Positions 1 through 12,677 of a stretch of 12,919 nucleotides of DNA are shown one piece after another. The notes under the pieces were generated by a model that saw only the letters and a program-made list of their open reading frames with translations, was not told the DNA's origin and made no database searches. Numbering within the stretch: position 1 is the stretch's first letter; the number at the start of each line of letters is the position of its first letter. The stretch spans positions 1 to 12,919 of the forward strand of contig JAIXNB010000004.1 in the NCBI GenBank assembly GCA_020697515.1. Reading direction: 5' to 3'. The DNA comes from Nanobdellota archaeon. Its GTDB lineage: Archaea > Nanobdellota > Nanobdellia > Nanobdellales > Nanobdellaceae. Made by a program: the position numbers and the translations under genes.

Positions 1-80
1 ACGGCACTCCCTTCAGCGAAGAGCAGGTGCATAGCCTTGTCCCTCGCCTACGGCTCATCAGCTCATCGGCGATACACTGT
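1..80. ncRNA. Truncated GC-rich, structured-RNA-like segment; identity and strand unresolved
   Basis: About 47 of the first 80 nt are G/C, against roughly one third elsewhere. The only comparable islands are the tRNA exons. The open frames here use codons (ggc, ccc, cgc, cgg, gcg, tcg) that are foreign to the AT-rich codon usage of every gene in the window, which argues for RNA rather than protein. There is a local hairpin, CTC-CC-TTC / AGC / GAA-GAG, at 7-23. On the minus strand a TATA-like ATTTTTAAAA (96-105) lies about 25 nt upstream of the GC block. On the plus strand the block is followed by GTTTGTTTTA (91-100). Either orientation is therefore possible, and the block runs off the window edge. 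Confidence 0.3.
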
Positions 81-289
81 AGTTATATTAGTTTGTTTTA
101 AAAATACTAAAAAGTCATCATAGTTTCCAAGAGAACCTAAGTGCTCGAATAAGTGAATAGTCCTTTGAAGTAACTGCCAAAAAAAGGAAAAATGGTATGG
201 ATATTTCGACTAATTAAACTTTTTGTATTAACAAGATAGCTTCCTATCCGGATCTGGATTTATATACTCCAAAAATTTCTTAGCAAAAA

Positions 290-556: not shown

Positions 557-690
557 TAAAATTTTAAATATCCTGACTCATAGAATTTATTTTTAGTACC
601 TCACATCATCAGCAGTTGTACATTTTGTAGAGTTCTGTAATAAAAGTAAAATGAGATTATATAGGAGGTTGTGATATAATATACTAACTC

Positions 691-2712: not shown

Positions 2713-2979
2713 TCTTATTTTTCAAAACCTACCACAACCAAAAACTTTTCTTTAGAGTATAGGAAGAAATTAGATAGACCTTGGAAAATGTTCGAAAAAA
2801 ATTGATATTCAAATTCTTCATTGTCTTACGAATCTTGAGAACGAAAAAAGCATCCTATCTGAAATATTACTTAAATTTAGAAACTAATTTTGAACCCGGG
2901 CCGGGGGGGATTTGAACCCCCGACCTGCGGGTTAAGAGCTTCGGCGGCCACCCCCGCTAATTTTTAAATACCATTAAAA

Positions 2980-2987
2980 TATTTAAA
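2980..2987 (-). promoter_or_regulatory. Intronic TATA-like TTTAAATA at -30..-23 relative to the first G of the 3' GC arm (2957)
   Basis: The octamer and spacing are the same as at the promoters of ORF 320 and the PRC-barrel gene, and it is preceded by the purine-rich AAGAAGG. A chance occurrence in AT-rich DNA cannot be excluded. Confidence 0.35.
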
Positions 2988-3054
2988 CCTTCTTATTTGA
3001 GATATAAGCGAATAGTCTAGAGAGGCTTATTAGGATATAAACTAATAAATTTAT

Positions 3055-3059
3055 AAAAA
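3055..3059 (-). terminator. T5 tract immediately after the 5' exon and its GC clamp, inside the tRNA intron
   Basis: The minus strand reads CCCCCGCGG-TTTTT-AT. An oligo-T run after a GC-rich stretch is the archaeal terminator signal. Confidence 0.4.
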
Positions 3060-3138
3060 CCGCGGGGGTGGTCACCGCCGCTCTGCCAGGCTGAGCTACC
3101 GGCCCATTAAAGAAGATACAAAATTCTAGAAACTAAAC

Positions 3139-3146
3139 TATTTAAA
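3139..3146 (-). promoter_or_regulatory. TATA box TTTAAATA at -41..-34 relative to tRNA nucleotide 1
   Basis: The consensus octamer lies upstream of the tRNA. The spacing predicts a 5' leader of roughly 8-12 nt rather than a leaderless tRNA. Confidence 0.5.
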
Positions 3147-9769: not shown

Positions 9770-11305
9770 TTGTTATTATTACAAGTGTGGTTAGAAAGAC
9801 CTGAAATACATTGGAATGCGCTAGATGTCTTAGCCCACCAAATAGTGGGGTTAACTATAGATTTTGGAGAAGTTGAAATTGATAAAGTATGGGAGACAAT
9901 AAAGAGGAGTTATGTATATAAAGATCTCTCTTATGGGGAGTTTTTAGAAGTTATAGAGTTTTTAGATTCTATCAGATTGATTAAGTTTGATAAAGAAAAG
10001 AACAAAATAACTAAAACAAGGAAAGGACACTTTTATTATATTGAGAACCTCTCTATGATTCCTGATGAAAAATCATATGATGTAGTGGATATAACCACTA
10101 AGATACGAATAGGAATTTTGCATGAAGAGTTCATAGCAAAATACGGTAATCCTGGTACTGTATTCATTTTGAGAGGATTTCCTTGGAAAATTGAGAAAGT
10201 TGAAAGAAACAAAGTTTTTGTATCTCTCTCCAAAGATTTTGAGAGCGCTATCCCATCTTGGGAGGGAGAACTATTACCAGTTCCATTTGAAATTGCTCAA
10301 GAATCCCAAAAAATAAAAGCAGAGTTAATAAATAAACTAGAAGATCTAAAGGAGCAGAAACTATATTTTATTCCTGATCCAAATTTGATTATTTTAGAGA
10401 GGTATAAAGATTGGTTCATAATCCATGCACCTTTTGGATCTAAAACAAATGACACGTTAGCCAGAATTATTGCATATATTATCTCTAGAGATTATGGCAT
10501 TGTAGTTGGTATAAGAACCGACCCATATAGGATATTGCTTAAAGCAGGGTATATTAATTTAAAAACTATCAAGGAAGTTTTAGAGAATCTCCCAGATGAA
10601 TTTGAGAATATGCTAGAAAAAGCAATAAAAAACACAGATTTATTCTTATGGAGATTTACTCATGTTGCTAAAAGGTTTGGGGTGATAAAAAAAGATGCAG
10701 ACTACTCTAAAAGTACCTTAAGAAGGATAGTGGAGGAGTTAATTGATACACCAGTATATAAGGAAACTATAAATGAAATATTCATCGAAAAGATGGATAT
10801 TCCCAACGCAAAGAAAGTTATAAGGAGGATAAAGGAAGGAAAAATAAAAGTTAAAATAATTAATAAAGAAAGACCCTCACCTTTAGCAATACTAGGATTA
10901 GAGCAAGTCGTATCTGATGTAATGTTATCTGATAAATGGAGAGAAATTTTAAGATTAGTTAAGGAAAGACTGGAAAACACTGAATTATATCTAGTATGTA
11001 TGAACTGTAAATCTATTTATAAGATTAAAGTAAAGGAATGGAATGAAAATTTTAGATGTAATAAGTGCGGTGGTGTATATTTTGGCGTTTCAAAAGGGTC
11101 AAAGTTTGATGATCAAACATTGGGTGTCACTGCAGATCTATTAAAATACTTCGGCAGGAAATTCCTATTAACTTATGCAGGTAAAGGAGTGAGCTATATT
11201 TCAGCTATAAGAATATTAAAAAGAGAATACAAGAATGAAGAGGAATTATTGAGGTATATCATTGAGGAGGAGAAAAGATTTTTTAAGATCAGAAAATATA
11301 TCTGA
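9770..11305 (+). CDS. C-terminal half of an Lhr-type (large helicase-related) helicase: winged-helix / DEAD-associated domain, domain 4 and a C-terminal Cys4 zinc ribbon. No helicase core is present.
   Basis: The segments NALDVLAHQIVG, SMIPDEKSYDVV, IGILHEEFI...FILRGFPWKIEKV and IPSWEGELLPVP align by eye with the Lhr region that follows motif VI (E. coli Lhr has NPLDVLAQQTVA, GTIPDRGMYSV, VGELDEEMV...WRIQQI and LPFWRGEG). A CxxC...CxxC motif sits at CMNCKS...CNKCGG. The track start is a TTG, the frame is open from 9731, and the first in-frame ATG is about 95 codons in. Confidence 0.75.
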   Translation: MLLLQVWLERPEIHWNALDVLAHQIVGLTIDFGEVEIDKVWETIKRSYVYKDLSYGEFLEVIEFLDSIRLIKFDKEKNKITKTRKGHFYYIENLSMIPDEKSYDVVDITTKIRIGILHEEFIAKYGNPGTVFILRGFPWKIEKVERNKVFVSLSKDFESAIPSWEGELLPVPFEIAQESQKIKAELINKLEDLKEQKLYFIPDPNLIILERYKDWFIIHAPFGSKTNDTLARIIAYIISRDYGIVVGIRTDPYRILLKAGYINLKTIKEVLENLPDEFENMLEKAIKNTDLFLWRFTHVAKRFGVIKKDADYSKSTLRRIVEELIDTPVYKETINEIFIEKMDIPNAKKVIRRIKEGKIKVKIINKERPSPLAILGLEQVVSDVMLSDKWREILRLVKERLENTELYLVCMNCKSIYKIKVKEWNENFRCNKCGGVYFGVSKGSKFDDQTLGVTADLLKYFGRKFLLTYAGKGVSYISAIRILKREYKNEEELLRYIIEEEKRFFKIRKYI

Positions 11306-11306
11306 G

Positions 11307-12677
11307 ATGTATTCTTTGGTCAGATATTTCAAAAACATTTTTAACGAAGAGGTATCAAGGTATTTTTTAATTTTCTTATTAGCATTTGTACCCCAATTAA
11401 TTATTATATTCACCGAATCTCCCATCTTGCTGTGGGAGGAGAATATACATTTAGCTACTGCTAAAAAATTCATTGAAGCTGATAATTATTCTGAAGGTTT
11501 CCAATTTTCAATATTGGAATGGATATTAGCATCATTAATTGTTATATTTGGAGATAACATAACTATAATTAAAATAGTTCTAATTCTCATATATTCCATT
11601 TCTGTAATATTTTTGTTTAAAATCTTTGAAGAATACTATAAGGATTCCTGGAAGAATAGTCTTTTTACCTTTTTTTATGTTGTTAATGGAATAAATCTGT
11701 TTTGGGCTAGTAGGATATGTTCGGATGTACTTGGGGCATCTTTTTTGATATTGTCATTATATTTTTATTATAGGTACTACTATAAACGAGAAGATAAAGA
11801 TCTTGTTTGCTCTACATTTTTTGGAGTGTTATCATTTTTAGCAAAGTTGTATTACGGGCTTTGGCTAGTTATATTGTTAATGACTTTAGAAAATAGAGTA
11901 AAAGTTAGATTTTTAATGTATTTATTGATATTTGTTTTTCCTTGGCTCTTATATAATATTATATATTATGAGAGTCCTTTACGGGTTTTAATAAACCAAT
12001 ATAATATAACCTTCTCCTGGCAACATTCAGAATCCATATTAAGGTTCATAAACAACTTGTTGGTATATATAGGTTTTATAACGGTATCCCTATTACTTTA
12101 TACAAAAATAAATGCTGTTGAGAGACCTATATATTTTTATACTTTAATTTTATTGGTCTATTTTACAGTCTTCGTAGAATTTAATAACCCTAGACACTTT
12201 ATAGCAATCCTACCAACTCTCATAATTCTTGCTAGGGCAACTGTTGACAGAATCCCTGGAACTTTACTAATTCTTCTTTTGGCTTATACATTCTCAGCAG
12301 GACAGTCTGCTTTAAAAGGAATAAATGACATAATTCAATATAGATTTTGTTGGGATGGAACAGATATAATATCATTTGCAATAAACTATCTTAGAAATCA
12401 CAATGCTTCTGTTGTTCTAAGCAATTGTTGTTGGATATGGATAAGAAATACCTTAGGAATAGAATCCTACGCATTATGGTCAGAAAATGTTTCATACCTT
12501 ATACAATTATATAAACCCGATTATATAGTGTATAGTCCGAATTACGGGATATTACTAAATTATAGTTTTAAAAATTTAGAAGAAGTAGTGGAATATGAAG
12601 ATGTCTGCGGATTAAAGGTGATAATTTACAGCCGGAAACCGCTCTCCCCTCAAAATTATTTAGAAAATAAACAATAA
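11307..12677 (+). CDS. Polytopic membrane protein, probably a GT-C-fold glycosyltransferase (GT39/ArnT/PMT_2-like)
   Basis: It has at least 10 hydrophobic segments, an acidic motif in the first predicted loop (LLWEENIHLATAKKF, compare the D/E-E motif of GT-C enzymes), and a soluble C-terminal domain of about 100 aa. I place the start at the ATG at 11307, 1 nt after the helicase stop, rather than at the track's TTG at 11262. The functional call is by architecture only. Confidence 0.55.
   Translation: MYSLVRYFKNIFNEEVSRYFLIFLLAFVPQLIIIFTESPILLWEENIHLATAKKFIEADNYSEGFQFSILEWILASLIVIFGDNITIIKIVLILIYSISVIFLFKIFEEYYKDSWKNSLFTFFYVVNGINLFWASRICSDVLGASFLILSLYFYYRYYYKREDKDLVCSTFFGVLSFLAKLYYGLWLVILLMTLENRVKVRFLMYLLIFVFPWLLYNIIYYESPLRVLINQYNITFSWQHSESILRFINNLLVYIGFITVSLLLYTKINAVERPIYFYTLILLVYFTVFVEFNNPRHFIAILPTLIILARATVDRIPGTLLILLLAYTFSAGQSALKGINDIIQYRFCWDGTDIISFAINYLRNHNASVVLSNCCWIWIRNTLGIESYALWSENVSYLIQLYKPDYIVYSPNYGILLNYSFKNLEEVVEYEDVCGLKVIIYSRKPLSPQNYLENKQ

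What the first reader, a model, noticed from the sequence alone, without database searches (positions are those of the whole stretch)
2940..3074. The tRNA-Lys intervening sequence is organised like two head-to-tail tRNA half genes (possible cis/trans-splicing intermediate)
This is seen in the sequence, RNA sense. Exon 1 is followed by a 14-nt GC clamp (GACCACCCCCGCGG) and then immediately by TTTTT (3059-3055), the archaeal termination signal. About 70 nt of AT-rich spacer follow. Next comes TTTAAATA (2987-2980), whose position is exactly -30..-23 relative to the first G of the complementary GC arm GCGGGGGTGGCCGCCGAA (starting at 2957) that leads into exon 2. TTTAAATA at exactly -30..-23 is also the arrangement upstream of the leaderless ATGs at 320 and 2458, and the same octamer serves the tRNA's own upstream promoter. 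By established knowledge, Nanoarchaeum equitans makes several tRNAs from separately transcribed 5' and 3' halves. From memory, and to be verified, these include tRNA-Lys(CUU). The halves are brought together by GC-rich complementary trailer and leader sequences and processed by the splicing endonuclease (Randau et al. 2005). My inference is that this locus could produce the tRNA in two ways: from a read-through precursor (cis), or from two short primary transcripts that anneal through the GC arms (trans). If so, it would be a physical intermediate between intron-containing and split tRNA genes. The caveat is that A/T octamers arise by chance in AT-rich DNA; a plus-strand TTTAAATA also occurs at 2963-2970.
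Basis: partly seen in the sequence, partly recalled or inferred. Interest (0 to 1): 0.85.

Follow-up and report, generated by a model that had tools for sequence, protein, structure and literature searches.

The report
tRNA-Lys gene built like adjacent halves
A nanoarchaeal lysine-tRNA gene is interrupted, at the same spot where Nanoarchaeum equitans keeps this tRNA as two separate genes, by a 135-base insert that carries a stop signal after the first half and a start signal before the second. It therefore looks like a split tRNA gene whose halves still sit side by side, a rare but already described kind of arrangement.

Summary
A tRNA-Lys(CUU) gene lies on the minus strand: exon 1 at 3105-3075, a 135-nt intervening sequence at 3074-2940, and exon 2 at 2939-2897. 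ARAGORN in its default mode and Rfam both miss it. The exons join at tRNA position 30/31 through a canonical hBHBh' motif. [quoted passage not shown]

The insert reads C-rich arm, T5, about 100 nt of 80% A+T, TTTAAATA, 22 nt, then G-rich arm. Metagenomic Desulfurococcales-type loci with halves 216 nt, about 816 nt or more than 1.5 kb apart show the same geometry. Ordinary 30/31 introns in about 100 other archaeal loci are 12-42 nt long and lack such arms.

T5 runs are nearly absent from gene sense strands here and common just after stop codons, so the T5 probably terminates transcription. The internal promoter is less secure. It is significant as an exact octamer (p about 0.001-0.006) but not under a lineage promoter matrix (p = 0.23).

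Relatives carry an uninterrupted gene or a 12-nt canonical intron, so the insert is species-specific.

Verdict: a new member of a known kind, the adjacent split tRNA (compare A. pernix tRNA-Asp). Whether trans-splicing occurs needs transcript data.

The parts
3139..3146 (-). TTTAAATA box upstream of the tRNA, the gene's own promoter. It predicts a start near 3118-3117 and a 5' leader of about 12 nt.
   Evidence: The lineage BRE+TATA matrix scores it 7.9-9.0, at or above 60-71% of 35 gene promoters.
3075..3105 (-). Exon 1 of tRNA-Lys(CUU), tRNA positions 1-30 (31 nt).
   Evidence: It differs by 1 nt from the uninterrupted orthologues in L003 and L011.
3062..3073 (-). 5' (trailer) arm GACCACCCCCGC. 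It pairs with 2957-2946: 12 bp with one A.C mismatch, 10 bp perfect. U3074 together with G3076 and G3075 forms the 5' splice bulge.
3055..3059 (-). T5 run two bases after the 5' arm. It is a candidate terminator for a 5' half transcript.
   Evidence: p = 0.036 by shuffling. T>=5 runs are depleted on gene sense strands and frequent after stop codons.
2958..3054 (-). A+T-rich spacer; with the T5 run it forms the 102-nt core (80% A+T). No C/D box, no Rfam match, no credible ORF, and no similarity to the tRNA flanks.
2980..2987 (-). Internal TTTAAATA, a candidate box A for a 3' half transcript. Its first T lies 30 nt upstream of G2957.
   Evidence: The lineage matrix scores it weakly.
2946..2957 (-). 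3' (leader) arm GCGGGGGTGGCC. The predicted start of a 3' half transcript is A2958 or G2957.
   Evidence: The TATA-to-leader geometry matches L069, L175 and L134.
2940..2945 (-). BHB part of the insert. GCCG (2945-2942) pairs with C25-C28 of exon 1 (3080-3077). A2941 and A2940 together with G2939 form the 3' splice bulge.
   Evidence: Twenty-six of 109 distinct other 30/31 introns end in the same GCCGAA.
2897..2939 (-). Exon 2 of tRNA-Lys(CUU), positions 31-73. CCA is not encoded. C32-U35 (2938-2935) pair with A21-G24 (3084-3081) in the precursor.
2844..2849 (-). T6 run. It is the first T>=5 run after exon 2 and the likely terminator of the tRNA or 3' half transcript.
   Evidence: read directly from the sequence.

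Best explanation
The locus is an adjacent (head-to-tail) split tRNA-Lys(CUU) gene in a marine-vent nanoarchaeote.

Shown:
- The two exons are separated at tRNA position 30/31 by 135 nt.
- The ends of the insert form a canonical helix-bulge-helix-bulge-helix motif backed by a 10-12 bp G/C duplex.
- The interior of the insert carries a T5 run directly after the 5' arm.
- A consensus TTTAAATA box lies 30 nt before the first base of the 3' arm.

Inferred mechanism:
- Transcription from the upstream promoter (start near 3118) often stops at the T5. This gives a 5' half of about 60 nt: leader, exon 1 and C-rich trailer.
- A second start at A2958 or G2957 gives a 3' half: G-rich leader, exon 2 and a trailer running to the T6 at 2849-2844.
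- The halves anneal through the arms and the acceptor stem.
- The splicing endonuclease cuts both 3-nt bulges, and an RNA ligase joins G30 to G31.
- Transcripts that read through the T5 fold into the same motif and are spliced in cis, so both routes give the same tRNA.

What remains uncertain is how the two routes share the work, not what the product is.
For: - Gene and junction: the spliced product is a perfect cloverleaf. The hBHBh' pairs were listed and their energy evaluated. N. equitans and Staphylothermus split tRNA-Lys(CUU) use the same 30/31 junction (PMC3218864).
- Length and arms: 30/31 introns of tRNA-Lys(CUU) in about 100 loci from two collection scans are 12-42 nt long. Their internal stems are 1-7 bp in 84 of 86 cases. 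Here the insert is 135 nt and the arms are 10-12 bp, like split halves (12-16 bp).
- Geometry: L175 (216 nt apart), L134/L202 (817 and 815 nt apart) and the separate 3' halves L019, L026, L037, L069 and L070 all show a TATA box about 30 nt before a purine that lies at, or within about 7 nt upstream of, the G-rich leader (0-3 nt in L069, L175 and L134).
- N. equitans rules: box A TTTAAA about 26 nt upstream of the start, T-stretch terminators, and half transcripts that rarely extend beyond the G/C stretch (PMC3491384).
- Terminator: sense-strand T>=5 runs number only 5 in 12 ATG-start genes (7.7 kb). Nine of 14 genes have such a run within 40 nt after the stop. Intergenic DNA has 7.3 per kb per strand.
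- Shuffle tests: p = 0.0012 to 0.006 for the octamer, and 0.0015 for T5 plus a relaxed box.
- The promoter-to-leader segment is the reciprocal best match of the separate 3' half gene in L069 (score 19 against a null of 10.2+-2.0, p = 0.003).
- The predicted dimer of halves is favoured by -19 kcal/mol at 85 C.
- Precedent: in A. pernix tRNA-Asp(GUC), a 121-nt 'intron' with an internal promoter, northern blots show the halves (PMC3218864).
Against: - No transcript evidence is available.
- The lineage BRE+TATA matrix gives the internal sense site 3.6 bits at best in the allowed registers (p = 0.23). Two G residues sit directly 5' of TTTAAA, which none of the 35 training promoters shows.
- Plus-strand (antisense) sites inside the insert score higher, 10.3 and 9.5. 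TATA-like strings are therefore generic in this A+T-rich DNA.
- The halves are contiguous in all 8 independent contigs, so cis-splicing is always possible.
- The shuffle tests were designed after seeing the pattern.
- No relative carries the insert, so conservation of the T5 and the TATA box cannot be assessed.
- The similarity to L069 is modest after correction for 7 comparisons (about 0.02) and could be convergent.
Confidence: 0.5

Rival explanations
1. This is an ordinary, unusually long, cis-spliced BHB intron at position 30/31. A short hairpin intron of the widespread type acquired about 100 nt of A+T-rich filler in its loop. The T5 and the TTTAAATA are incidental, and only the full-length precursor matters.
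For: - The exons are contiguous and on the same strand in all 8 contigs.
- The BHB design, ending in GCCGAA|G, is the same as in dozens of short 30/31 introns.
- Desulfurococcaceae hairpin introns of about 36 nt already have 9-12 bp stems (L017, L041), so long arms do not by themselves prove a split.
- The internal promoter is not significant under the lineage matrix (p = 0.23), and antisense sites score higher.
- Archaeal tRNA introns of up to 129 nt were already known (PMC3218864).
Against: - A T5 run sits immediately after the arm in an organism whose genes avoid sense-strand T5 about tenfold. A cis-only intron should avoid it too.
- The exact consensus octamer lies at the exact spacing (p about 0.001-0.006).
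- 135 nt falls in the empty gap between ordinary introns (42 nt or less) and adjacent halves (216 nt or more).
- The one earlier archaeal tRNA intron longer than 100 nt without a C/D box sRNA turned out to be two transcripts.
Confidence: 0.38
2. The insert is a remnant of a mobile element, or of horizontally acquired DNA, that entered the tRNA gene by recombination through the highly conserved exons, for example from a crenarchaeal host's split tRNA-Lys locus. Its signals are relics of the donor locus and are not necessarily used in the nanoarchaeon.
For: - The promoter-to-leader segment is the reciprocal best match to the 3' half gene of Desulfurococcales archaeon ex4484_58 (L069; p = 0.003; shared AATTAG-N-GGGGG-(C)TGGCC).
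- The insert is species-specific. Relatives with 79-85% identical RadA lack it.
- The tRNA sits at a rearrangement hot spot. It is inverted in L083 and L086, and synteny is broken in L003 and L089.
- A mobile-element model for tRNA disruption has been published (PMC3293823).
Against: - The exons are of the nanoarchaeal type (1 nt per exon from L003), not the Desulfurococcales type (2 and 6 differences).
- The insert has no ORF, no repeats and no similarity to the flanks.
- The similarity to L069 is short and only modestly significant.
- This explanation concerns origin and is compatible with either expression mode.
Confidence: 0.1
3. The interrupted gene is decaying and no functional tRNA is made from it.
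For: ARAGORN in default mode and Rfam do not detect it. tRNA-Lys(UUU) could in principle read AAG codons.
Against: - Both exons are intact and give a perfect cloverleaf.
- The BHB motif places the cuts exactly.
- The exons are identical in 8 contigs from several samples and 1 nt per exon from the orthologues.
Confidence: 0.02

Closest known systems
Aeropyrum pernix tRNA-Asp(GUC), adjacent head-to-tail split tRNA (Chan, Cozen and Lowe 2011, PMC3218864)
   Same: Both have two exons on one strand separated by just over 100 nt (121 there, 135 here). Both have a canonical hBHBh' motif backed by a G/C-rich stem (14 bp there, 10-12 bp here). Both have an internal box A or TATA placed so that the 3' transcript starts with the G/C leader, and neither has a C/D box sRNA. 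The authors already described that gene as an intermediate between cis- and trans-spliced forms.
   Different: The junction is 37/38 there and 30/31 here. The tRNA, the phylum (Thermoproteota there, Nanoarchaeota here) and the base composition all differ. Half transcripts were shown by northern blot there and are untested here. The internal promoter there scored in the top range of its genome, whereas here it scores poorly with the lineage matrix.
Nanoarchaeum equitans split tRNA-Lys(CUU) (Randau et al. 2005; coordinates in PMC3218864, Table 1)
   Same: Same tRNA, same 30/31 junction, a 43-nt 3' exon, G/C-rich complementary trailer and leader, the same broad lineage (Nanoarchaeota), and the same promoter and terminator rules (TTTAAA about 26 nt upstream, T-stretch).
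   Different: In N. equitans the halves lie about 71 kb apart on opposite strands, whereas here they are 135 nt apart on one strand. N. equitans lacks RNase P and starts tRNAs at +1, whereas here a 5' leader of about 12 nt is predicted. I could not fetch the N. equitans sequences, so homology of the arms is untested.
Staphylothermus marinus and S. hellenicus split tRNA-Lys(CUU), and the Desulfurococcales-type loci found here (L175, L134/L202, L019, L026, L037, L069, L070)
   Same: All share the 30/31 junction, a BHB part ending in GCCGAA or GCCGAT, G5-containing leaders, and a TATA box about 30 nt before the leader. The distances form a graded series: 216 nt, about 816 nt, more than 1.5 kb, and 4.5 kb in S. 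marinus.
   Different: The exons are of the Desulfurococcales type (8 differences from the window). The window's spacer (135 nt) is shorter than any of these.
Ordinary short BHB introns at 30/31 of tRNA-Lys(CUU), widespread in Thermoproteota, Bathyarchaeia, Methanomethylicia, Woesearchaeota, Hadarchaeales and Micrarchaeota
   Same: The position and the BHB design are identical: C25-C28 pair with GCCG, the bulges are GG|N and AA|G, and the anticodon-loop bases CUCU pair with A21-G24.
   Different: These introns are 12-42 nt long (median about 20), have internal stems of mostly 7 bp or less, and have no room for a terminator plus a promoter.

Membership tests
Archaeal BHB (endonuclease-spliced) tRNA intron at a non-canonical position | The flanking exons join to give a complete cloverleaf tRNA. 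| tested here: met
   a 74-nt tRNA-Lys(CUU). The junction GCGG|GCUC restores the G31-C39 pair and matches the uninterrupted orthologues.
Archaeal BHB (endonuclease-spliced) tRNA intron at a non-canonical position | Two 3-nt bulges separated by a 4-bp helix, flanked by outer helices, with the cuts at the exon borders. | tested here: met
   outer helix h (A21-G24 with C32-U35), bulge [A A|G31], central helix H (C25-C28 with GCCG), bulge [G29 G30|U], outer helix h' (12 bp). The unconstrained minimum-energy fold prefers a register shifted by 2-3 nt, as it would for the short homologues.
Archaeal BHB (endonuclease-spliced) tRNA intron at a non-canonical position | The genome encodes a splicing endonuclease able to cut at non-canonical positions, of the (alpha-beta)2 or epsilon2 type. 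| not testable with these tools
   No such gene lies in the 12.9-kb window, and the rest of the genome was not available.
Split (trans-spliced) tRNA gene | G/C-rich complementary trailer and leader outside the BHB motif, about 10 bp or more. | tested here: met
   Ten perfect bp, or 12 bp with one mismatch. The dimer of halves is stable to 95 C in silico.
Split (trans-spliced) tRNA gene | The 3' half has its own promoter at the right distance. | tested here: inconclusive
   The exact TTTAAATA lies 30 nt before G2957 (p = 0.001-0.006), and the geometry equals that of real 3' half genes. However, the lineage matrix gives 3.6 bits, p = 0.23.
Split (trans-spliced) tRNA gene | A terminator follows the 5' half. 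| tested here: met
   At the sequence level only. T5 lies 2 nt after the arm, and T>=5 runs behave as terminator signals in this organism.
Split (trans-spliced) tRNA gene | The halves are encoded at separate loci. | tested here: not met
   The halves are 135 nt apart on the same strand in all 8 contigs. This places the locus in the 'adjacent halves' subtype defined by A. pernix tRNA-Asp, not among classical dispersed split genes.
Split (trans-spliced) tRNA gene | Separate primary transcripts are observed. | not testable with these tools
   This needs RNA from the organism or a metatranscriptome.
tRNA intron hosting a C/D box sRNA (tRNA-Trp type) | C and D boxes within the intron. | tested here: not met
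   No C-like or D-like box on either strand. No Rfam match down to E = 10.

The most novel reading that the evidence does not exclude
This locus is a working dual-mode gene that makes one tRNA both by cis-splicing of a read-through precursor and by trans-splicing of two short primary transcripts. It would preserve, within Nanoarchaeota, the state that preceded the dispersed N. equitans tRNA-Lys(CUU) halves. A further possibility is that its promoter-leader module was exchanged with a crenarchaeal (host-like) split tRNA-Lys locus. If so, tRNA splits could spread horizontally by recombination through conserved exons.
Probability: 0.25. Interest if true: 0.75.

Novelty: new member of a known kind. 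Interest (0 to 1): 0.55.

Why it matters
Split tRNA genes are central to the debate on whether tRNA began as two half genes or whether splits are late products of intron expansion and genome rearrangement.

Published genomes of non-equitans Nanoarchaeota (Nst1, Nanopusillus acidilobi) are reported to lack split tRNAs entirely (PMC3655853, PMC4935971). In the genomes analysed so far, the N. equitans splits therefore stand alone within the phylum.

This study found four states of the same tRNA:
- an uninterrupted gene in some nanoarchaeal relatives;
- a short canonical intron in other relatives;
- a 135-nt half-gene-like insert at 30/31 in this organism;
- a parallel Desulfurococcales series with halves 216 nt, about 816 nt and several kb apart.

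Together these give a concrete, testable path: intron, then adjacent halves, then dispersed halves.

There is also a practical consequence. Default tRNA finders miss this gene, so such genomes will wrongly appear to lack tRNA-Lys(CUU).

Tried and rejected
- Fetching the N. equitans halves. Neither N. equitans, Staphylothermus nor the window's own MAG matched the pattern in the single genome-contig scan (H + exon 2). N. equitans RadA was not among the 120 best RadA hits. The PNAS paper with the sequences is not held, and the supplements of Fujishima 2008 contain no sequences. Homology of the arms with N. equitans therefore remains untested.
- A metagenome scan restricted to this lineage's acceptor stem (CCGGCCC) found nothing, not even the window's own contig. 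That collection evidently does not hold this contig.
- Origin by tandem duplication (spacer = 3' flank of one copy plus 5' flank of the next). The core shows no similarity to either flank beyond the TATA box (p = 0.32 and 0.61).
- A C/D box sRNA, another RNA family or a small protein within the insert. None was found.
- A fixed-register promoter matrix was uninformative because TATA positions vary by 2-3 nt between genes. It was replaced by an iteratively re-registered matrix (EM-style realignment).
- Conservation analysis of the T5 and TATA box. The 8 contigs that carry the insert are nearly identical, differing by one 1-nt deletion in the core. The two closest distinct lineages (FKBP 82-83% identical, L007 and L008; PRC 95% identical, L082) are on contigs that end before the tRNA.
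- ARAGORN's alternative junction (GCGGU|CUCUU) was rejected. It creates a U31.C39 mismatch, disagrees with the uninterrupted orthologues and does not fit the BHB motif.

Full report
WHAT IS THERE

On the minus strand, 3105-3075 and 2939-2897 join to give a perfect 74-nt tRNA-Lys(CUU) cloverleaf. CCA is not encoded.

ARAGORN in its default mode and the Rfam gathering search find no tRNA in the window. ARAGORN with introns enabled finds the gene but places the junction one base off.

The correct junction is G30|G31. It restores the G31-C39 pair and reproduces the uninterrupted orthologues. It is also the junction set by a canonical helix-bulge-helix-bulge-helix motif (pairs listed and evaluated):
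- Outer helix h: A21-G24 pair with C32-U35.
- 3' splice bulge: [A A|G31].
- Central helix H: C25-C28 pair with GCCG (2945-2942).
- 5' splice bulge: [G29 G30|U].
- Outer helix h': GACCACCCCCGC (3073-3062) pairs with GCGGGGGTGGCC (2957-2946), 12 bp with one A.C mismatch.

Two details need adjusting. The arms pair over 10-12 bp, not 14-18. The tRNA's own TTTAAATA (3146-3139) lies at -41..-34 from G1, which implies a 5' leader of about 12 nt.

WHOSE GENOME

The window is part of a 15-kb JGI metagenome contig. NCBI labels the identical FKBP protein 'MAG TPA: Candidatus Nanopusillus sp.'. The best named RadA hits are from Nanopusillaceae, Nanobdella aerobiophila and Nanoarchaeota NZ13-N, at 70-72% identity. 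The organism is therefore a marine-vent nanoarchaeote that is not close to N. equitans.

COMPARISON WITH KNOWN SPLIT tRNAs

N. equitans tRNA-Lys(CUU) is split, and it is split at 30/31. The same is true of the Staphylothermus gene, whose halves lie 4.5 kb apart (PMC3218864).

The same paper describes A. pernix tRNA-Asp(GUC). A 121-nt 'intron' there contains a BRE/TATA promoter and a 14-bp G/C stem. Northern blots show the two halves, and the read-through product is seen only by RT-PCR. The authors call that gene a possible true intermediate between cis- and trans-spliced forms. The concept is therefore already published, and this locus would be a further example.

Randau (2012) gives the N. 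equitans rules: box A TTTAAA about 26 nt upstream of the start, T-stretch terminators, and half transcripts that mostly do not extend beyond the G/C stretch (PMC3491384). The window's layout follows these rules.

HOW UNUSUAL THE INSERT IS

I made two collection scans for tRNA-Lys(CUU) 3' exons preceded by a base other than G. They returned 172 loci.

About 100 loci carry ordinary 30/31 introns of 12-42 nt. These occur in Thermoproteota, Bathyarchaeia, Methanomethylicia, Woesearchaeota, Hadarchaeales and others. Most end in GCCGAA, GCTGAA or GGTGAA, which is the window's BHB design. Their longest internal stems are 1-7 bp in 84 of 86 cases.

The recurrence of this position has a simple reason, visible in the sequence. 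The anticodon-loop bases CUCU (32-35) are complementary to AGAG (21-24), which supplies the outer helix of the motif.

Beyond 42 nt, the only genuine cases are Desulfurococcales-type genes with half-gene features:
- L175: halves 216 nt apart, 12-bp arms, T5 after the 5' arm, and TTTAAAAA 30 nt before the leader.
- L134 and L202: halves 817 and 815 nt apart, with 16-bp arms.
- L019, L026, L037, L069 and L070: 3' halves with no exon 1 nearby (none within the 8-kb locus in the three searched fully, L019, L026, L037).

In each, a TATA box is followed after about 22 nt by a purine that lies at, or within about 7 nt upstream of, the G-rich leader (0-3 nt in L069, L175 and L134). The window has the same geometry. 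At 135 nt it falls in the gap between ordinary introns and these adjacent halves.

ARE THE SIGNALS REAL?

Terminator. Sense-strand T>=5 runs are almost absent from genes here: 5 in the twelve ATG-start genes, which total 7.7 kb. Nine of 14 genes have such a run within 40 nt after the stop codon. Intergenic DNA carries 7.3 runs per kb per strand. T5 therefore behaves as a termination signal in this organism. A T5 two bases after the 5' arm is not what a purely cis-transcribed intron should tolerate.

Promoter. The evidence depends on the model used.
- In 20,000 dinucleotide shuffles of the core, the exact octamer at the exact offset has p = 0.0012 (0.006 within +-2 nt). T5 together with a relaxed box (at most one mismatch, +-1 nt) has p = 0.0015. 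These tests were framed after the pattern had been seen.
- A BRE+TATA matrix learned from 35 leaderless genes of this lineage scores the tRNA's own promoter well (7.9-9.0). It scores the internal site at only 3.6 bits, p = 0.23.
- Two antisense sites within the insert score higher, 10.3 and 9.5.

In favour of the promoter, the 56-nt promoter-to-leader segment is the reciprocal best match of the corresponding segment of the separate 3' half gene in L069. The score is 19 against a null of 10.2+-2.0, p = 0.003, or about 0.02 after correction for seven comparisons. The two share AATTAG-N-GGGGG-(C)TGGCC.

In silico, the two predicted halves form the expected dimer, favoured by -19 kcal/mol at 85 C.

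RELATIVES

Eight contigs from several samples carry the same insert. The only difference is a 1-nt deletion in the core in two of them. The insert is therefore fixed in this population, and the halves are always linked.

More distant relatives differ.
- L003 and L011 (FKBP 60-65% identical) have an uninterrupted tRNA-Lys(CUU) directly after FKBP.
- L083-L086 (RadA about 85%, PRC 83-85% identical) have the gene on the opposite strand, with a 12-nt intron at the canonical 37/38 position.
- L089 and L090 have no tRNA after the PRC gene.

The 30/31 insert is therefore species-specific and sits at a rearrangement hot spot. Published non-equitans nanoarchaeal genomes are reported to lack split tRNAs (PMC3655853, PMC4935971). 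I found no paper describing adjacent halves in this group.

ALTERNATIVES EXAMINED

The insert contains no C/D box sRNA, no Rfam family and no credible ORF. It shows no similarity to the tRNA flanks, which argues against origin by tandem duplication.

VERDICT

The structural claim is confirmed: the insert is organised like two head-to-tail half genes. It is strengthened by the comparison with real adjacent and separated tRNA-Lys(CUU) halves and by the behaviour of T5 in this genome.

The functional claim, that separate transcripts are made and trans-spliced, remains open. I put it at about 0.5, against about 0.4 for a purely cis-spliced long intron. The product, a BHB-spliced tRNA-Lys(CUU), is the same either way.

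This is a new member of a known kind, and moderately interesting. It places a half-gene-like intermediate at the N. equitans junction inside Nanoarchaeota.

Noticed in passing
window 58-121, minus strand: A 64-nt stretch begins with a consensus C box (ATGATGA) and ends with a D box (CTGA): ATGATGACTTTTTAGTATTTTTAAAACAAACTAATATAACTACAGTGTATCGCCGATGAGCTGA. It may be an unannotated C/D box sRNA. Rfam did not report it.
   Followed up: no
window 563-570 (+) and 590-700: A plus-strand TTTAAATA has no ORF start 30 nt downstream. L15e starts at 719 with its own TATA box. The fixed-register promoter matrix also ranks a start near 591 highly. An unannotated small transcript may start near 593.
   Followed up: no
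window 2955-2968 and 3044-3057, plus strand: Two promoter-like sites on the strand antisense to the tRNA lie inside the insert. They score 10.3 and 9.5 with the lineage matrix and predict starts near 2990 and 3079. They may drive antisense transcription, or they may simply reflect the near-palindromic nature of TATA boxes.
   Followed up: partly
L175 (Ga-type JGI contig), L134 and L202: These are Desulfurococcales-type tRNA-Lys(CUU) genes whose 5' and 3' halves lie head to tail, 216 nt apart (L175) and 817/815 nt apart (L134/L202). Each has 12-16 bp arms and its own TATA box. With S. marinus (4.5 kb) they form a graded series of separation distances. I do not know whether they have been described.
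   Followed up: partly
L069 (Desulfurococcales archaeon ex4484_58, NJDP01000053.1) against window 2995-2946: The promoter-to-leader region of this separate 3' half gene is the reciprocal best match of the window's internal segment, at about 70% identity over 54 aligned positions (p = 0.003). This could reflect exchange between a nanoarchaeon and a host-like crenarchaeon, or convergence.
   Followed up: partly
L083-L085 2801-2886; L086 1741-1826: In relatives with about 85% identical RadA, the tRNA-Lys(CUU) gene lies between the same neighbours (PRC and FKBP) but on the opposite strand. It carries a 12-nt intron at the canonical 37/38 position. Within one family the same tRNA therefore has at least three gene structures and two orientations.
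   Followed up: partly
L002 (ends 3 nt into the insert), L079 (ends in exon 1), L081 (ends just after exon 2): Several independent metagenome contigs of this organism break at or inside the tRNA gene. This may be an assembly effect of tRNA sequences shared among co-occurring archaea, or a sign of population heterogeneity at the locus.
   Followed up: no
L022, L031, L048, L059 and other Bathyarchaeia loci: These tRNA-Lys(CUU) genes carry a second interruption near the 5' acceptor or D-arm region (for example GGGCCCGTAAACC...GGTCGGGAAGCTCAG) in addition to the 30/31 intron. They are multi-intron forms of the same tRNA.
   Followed up: no
window 9770-11305 and 11262-12677, plus strand: These two TTG-start ORFs hold 17 of the 22 sense-strand T>=5 runs found in all ORFs. 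Either they are unusually Phe-rich (membrane?) proteins or the ORF calls and starts are wrong.
   Followed up: no
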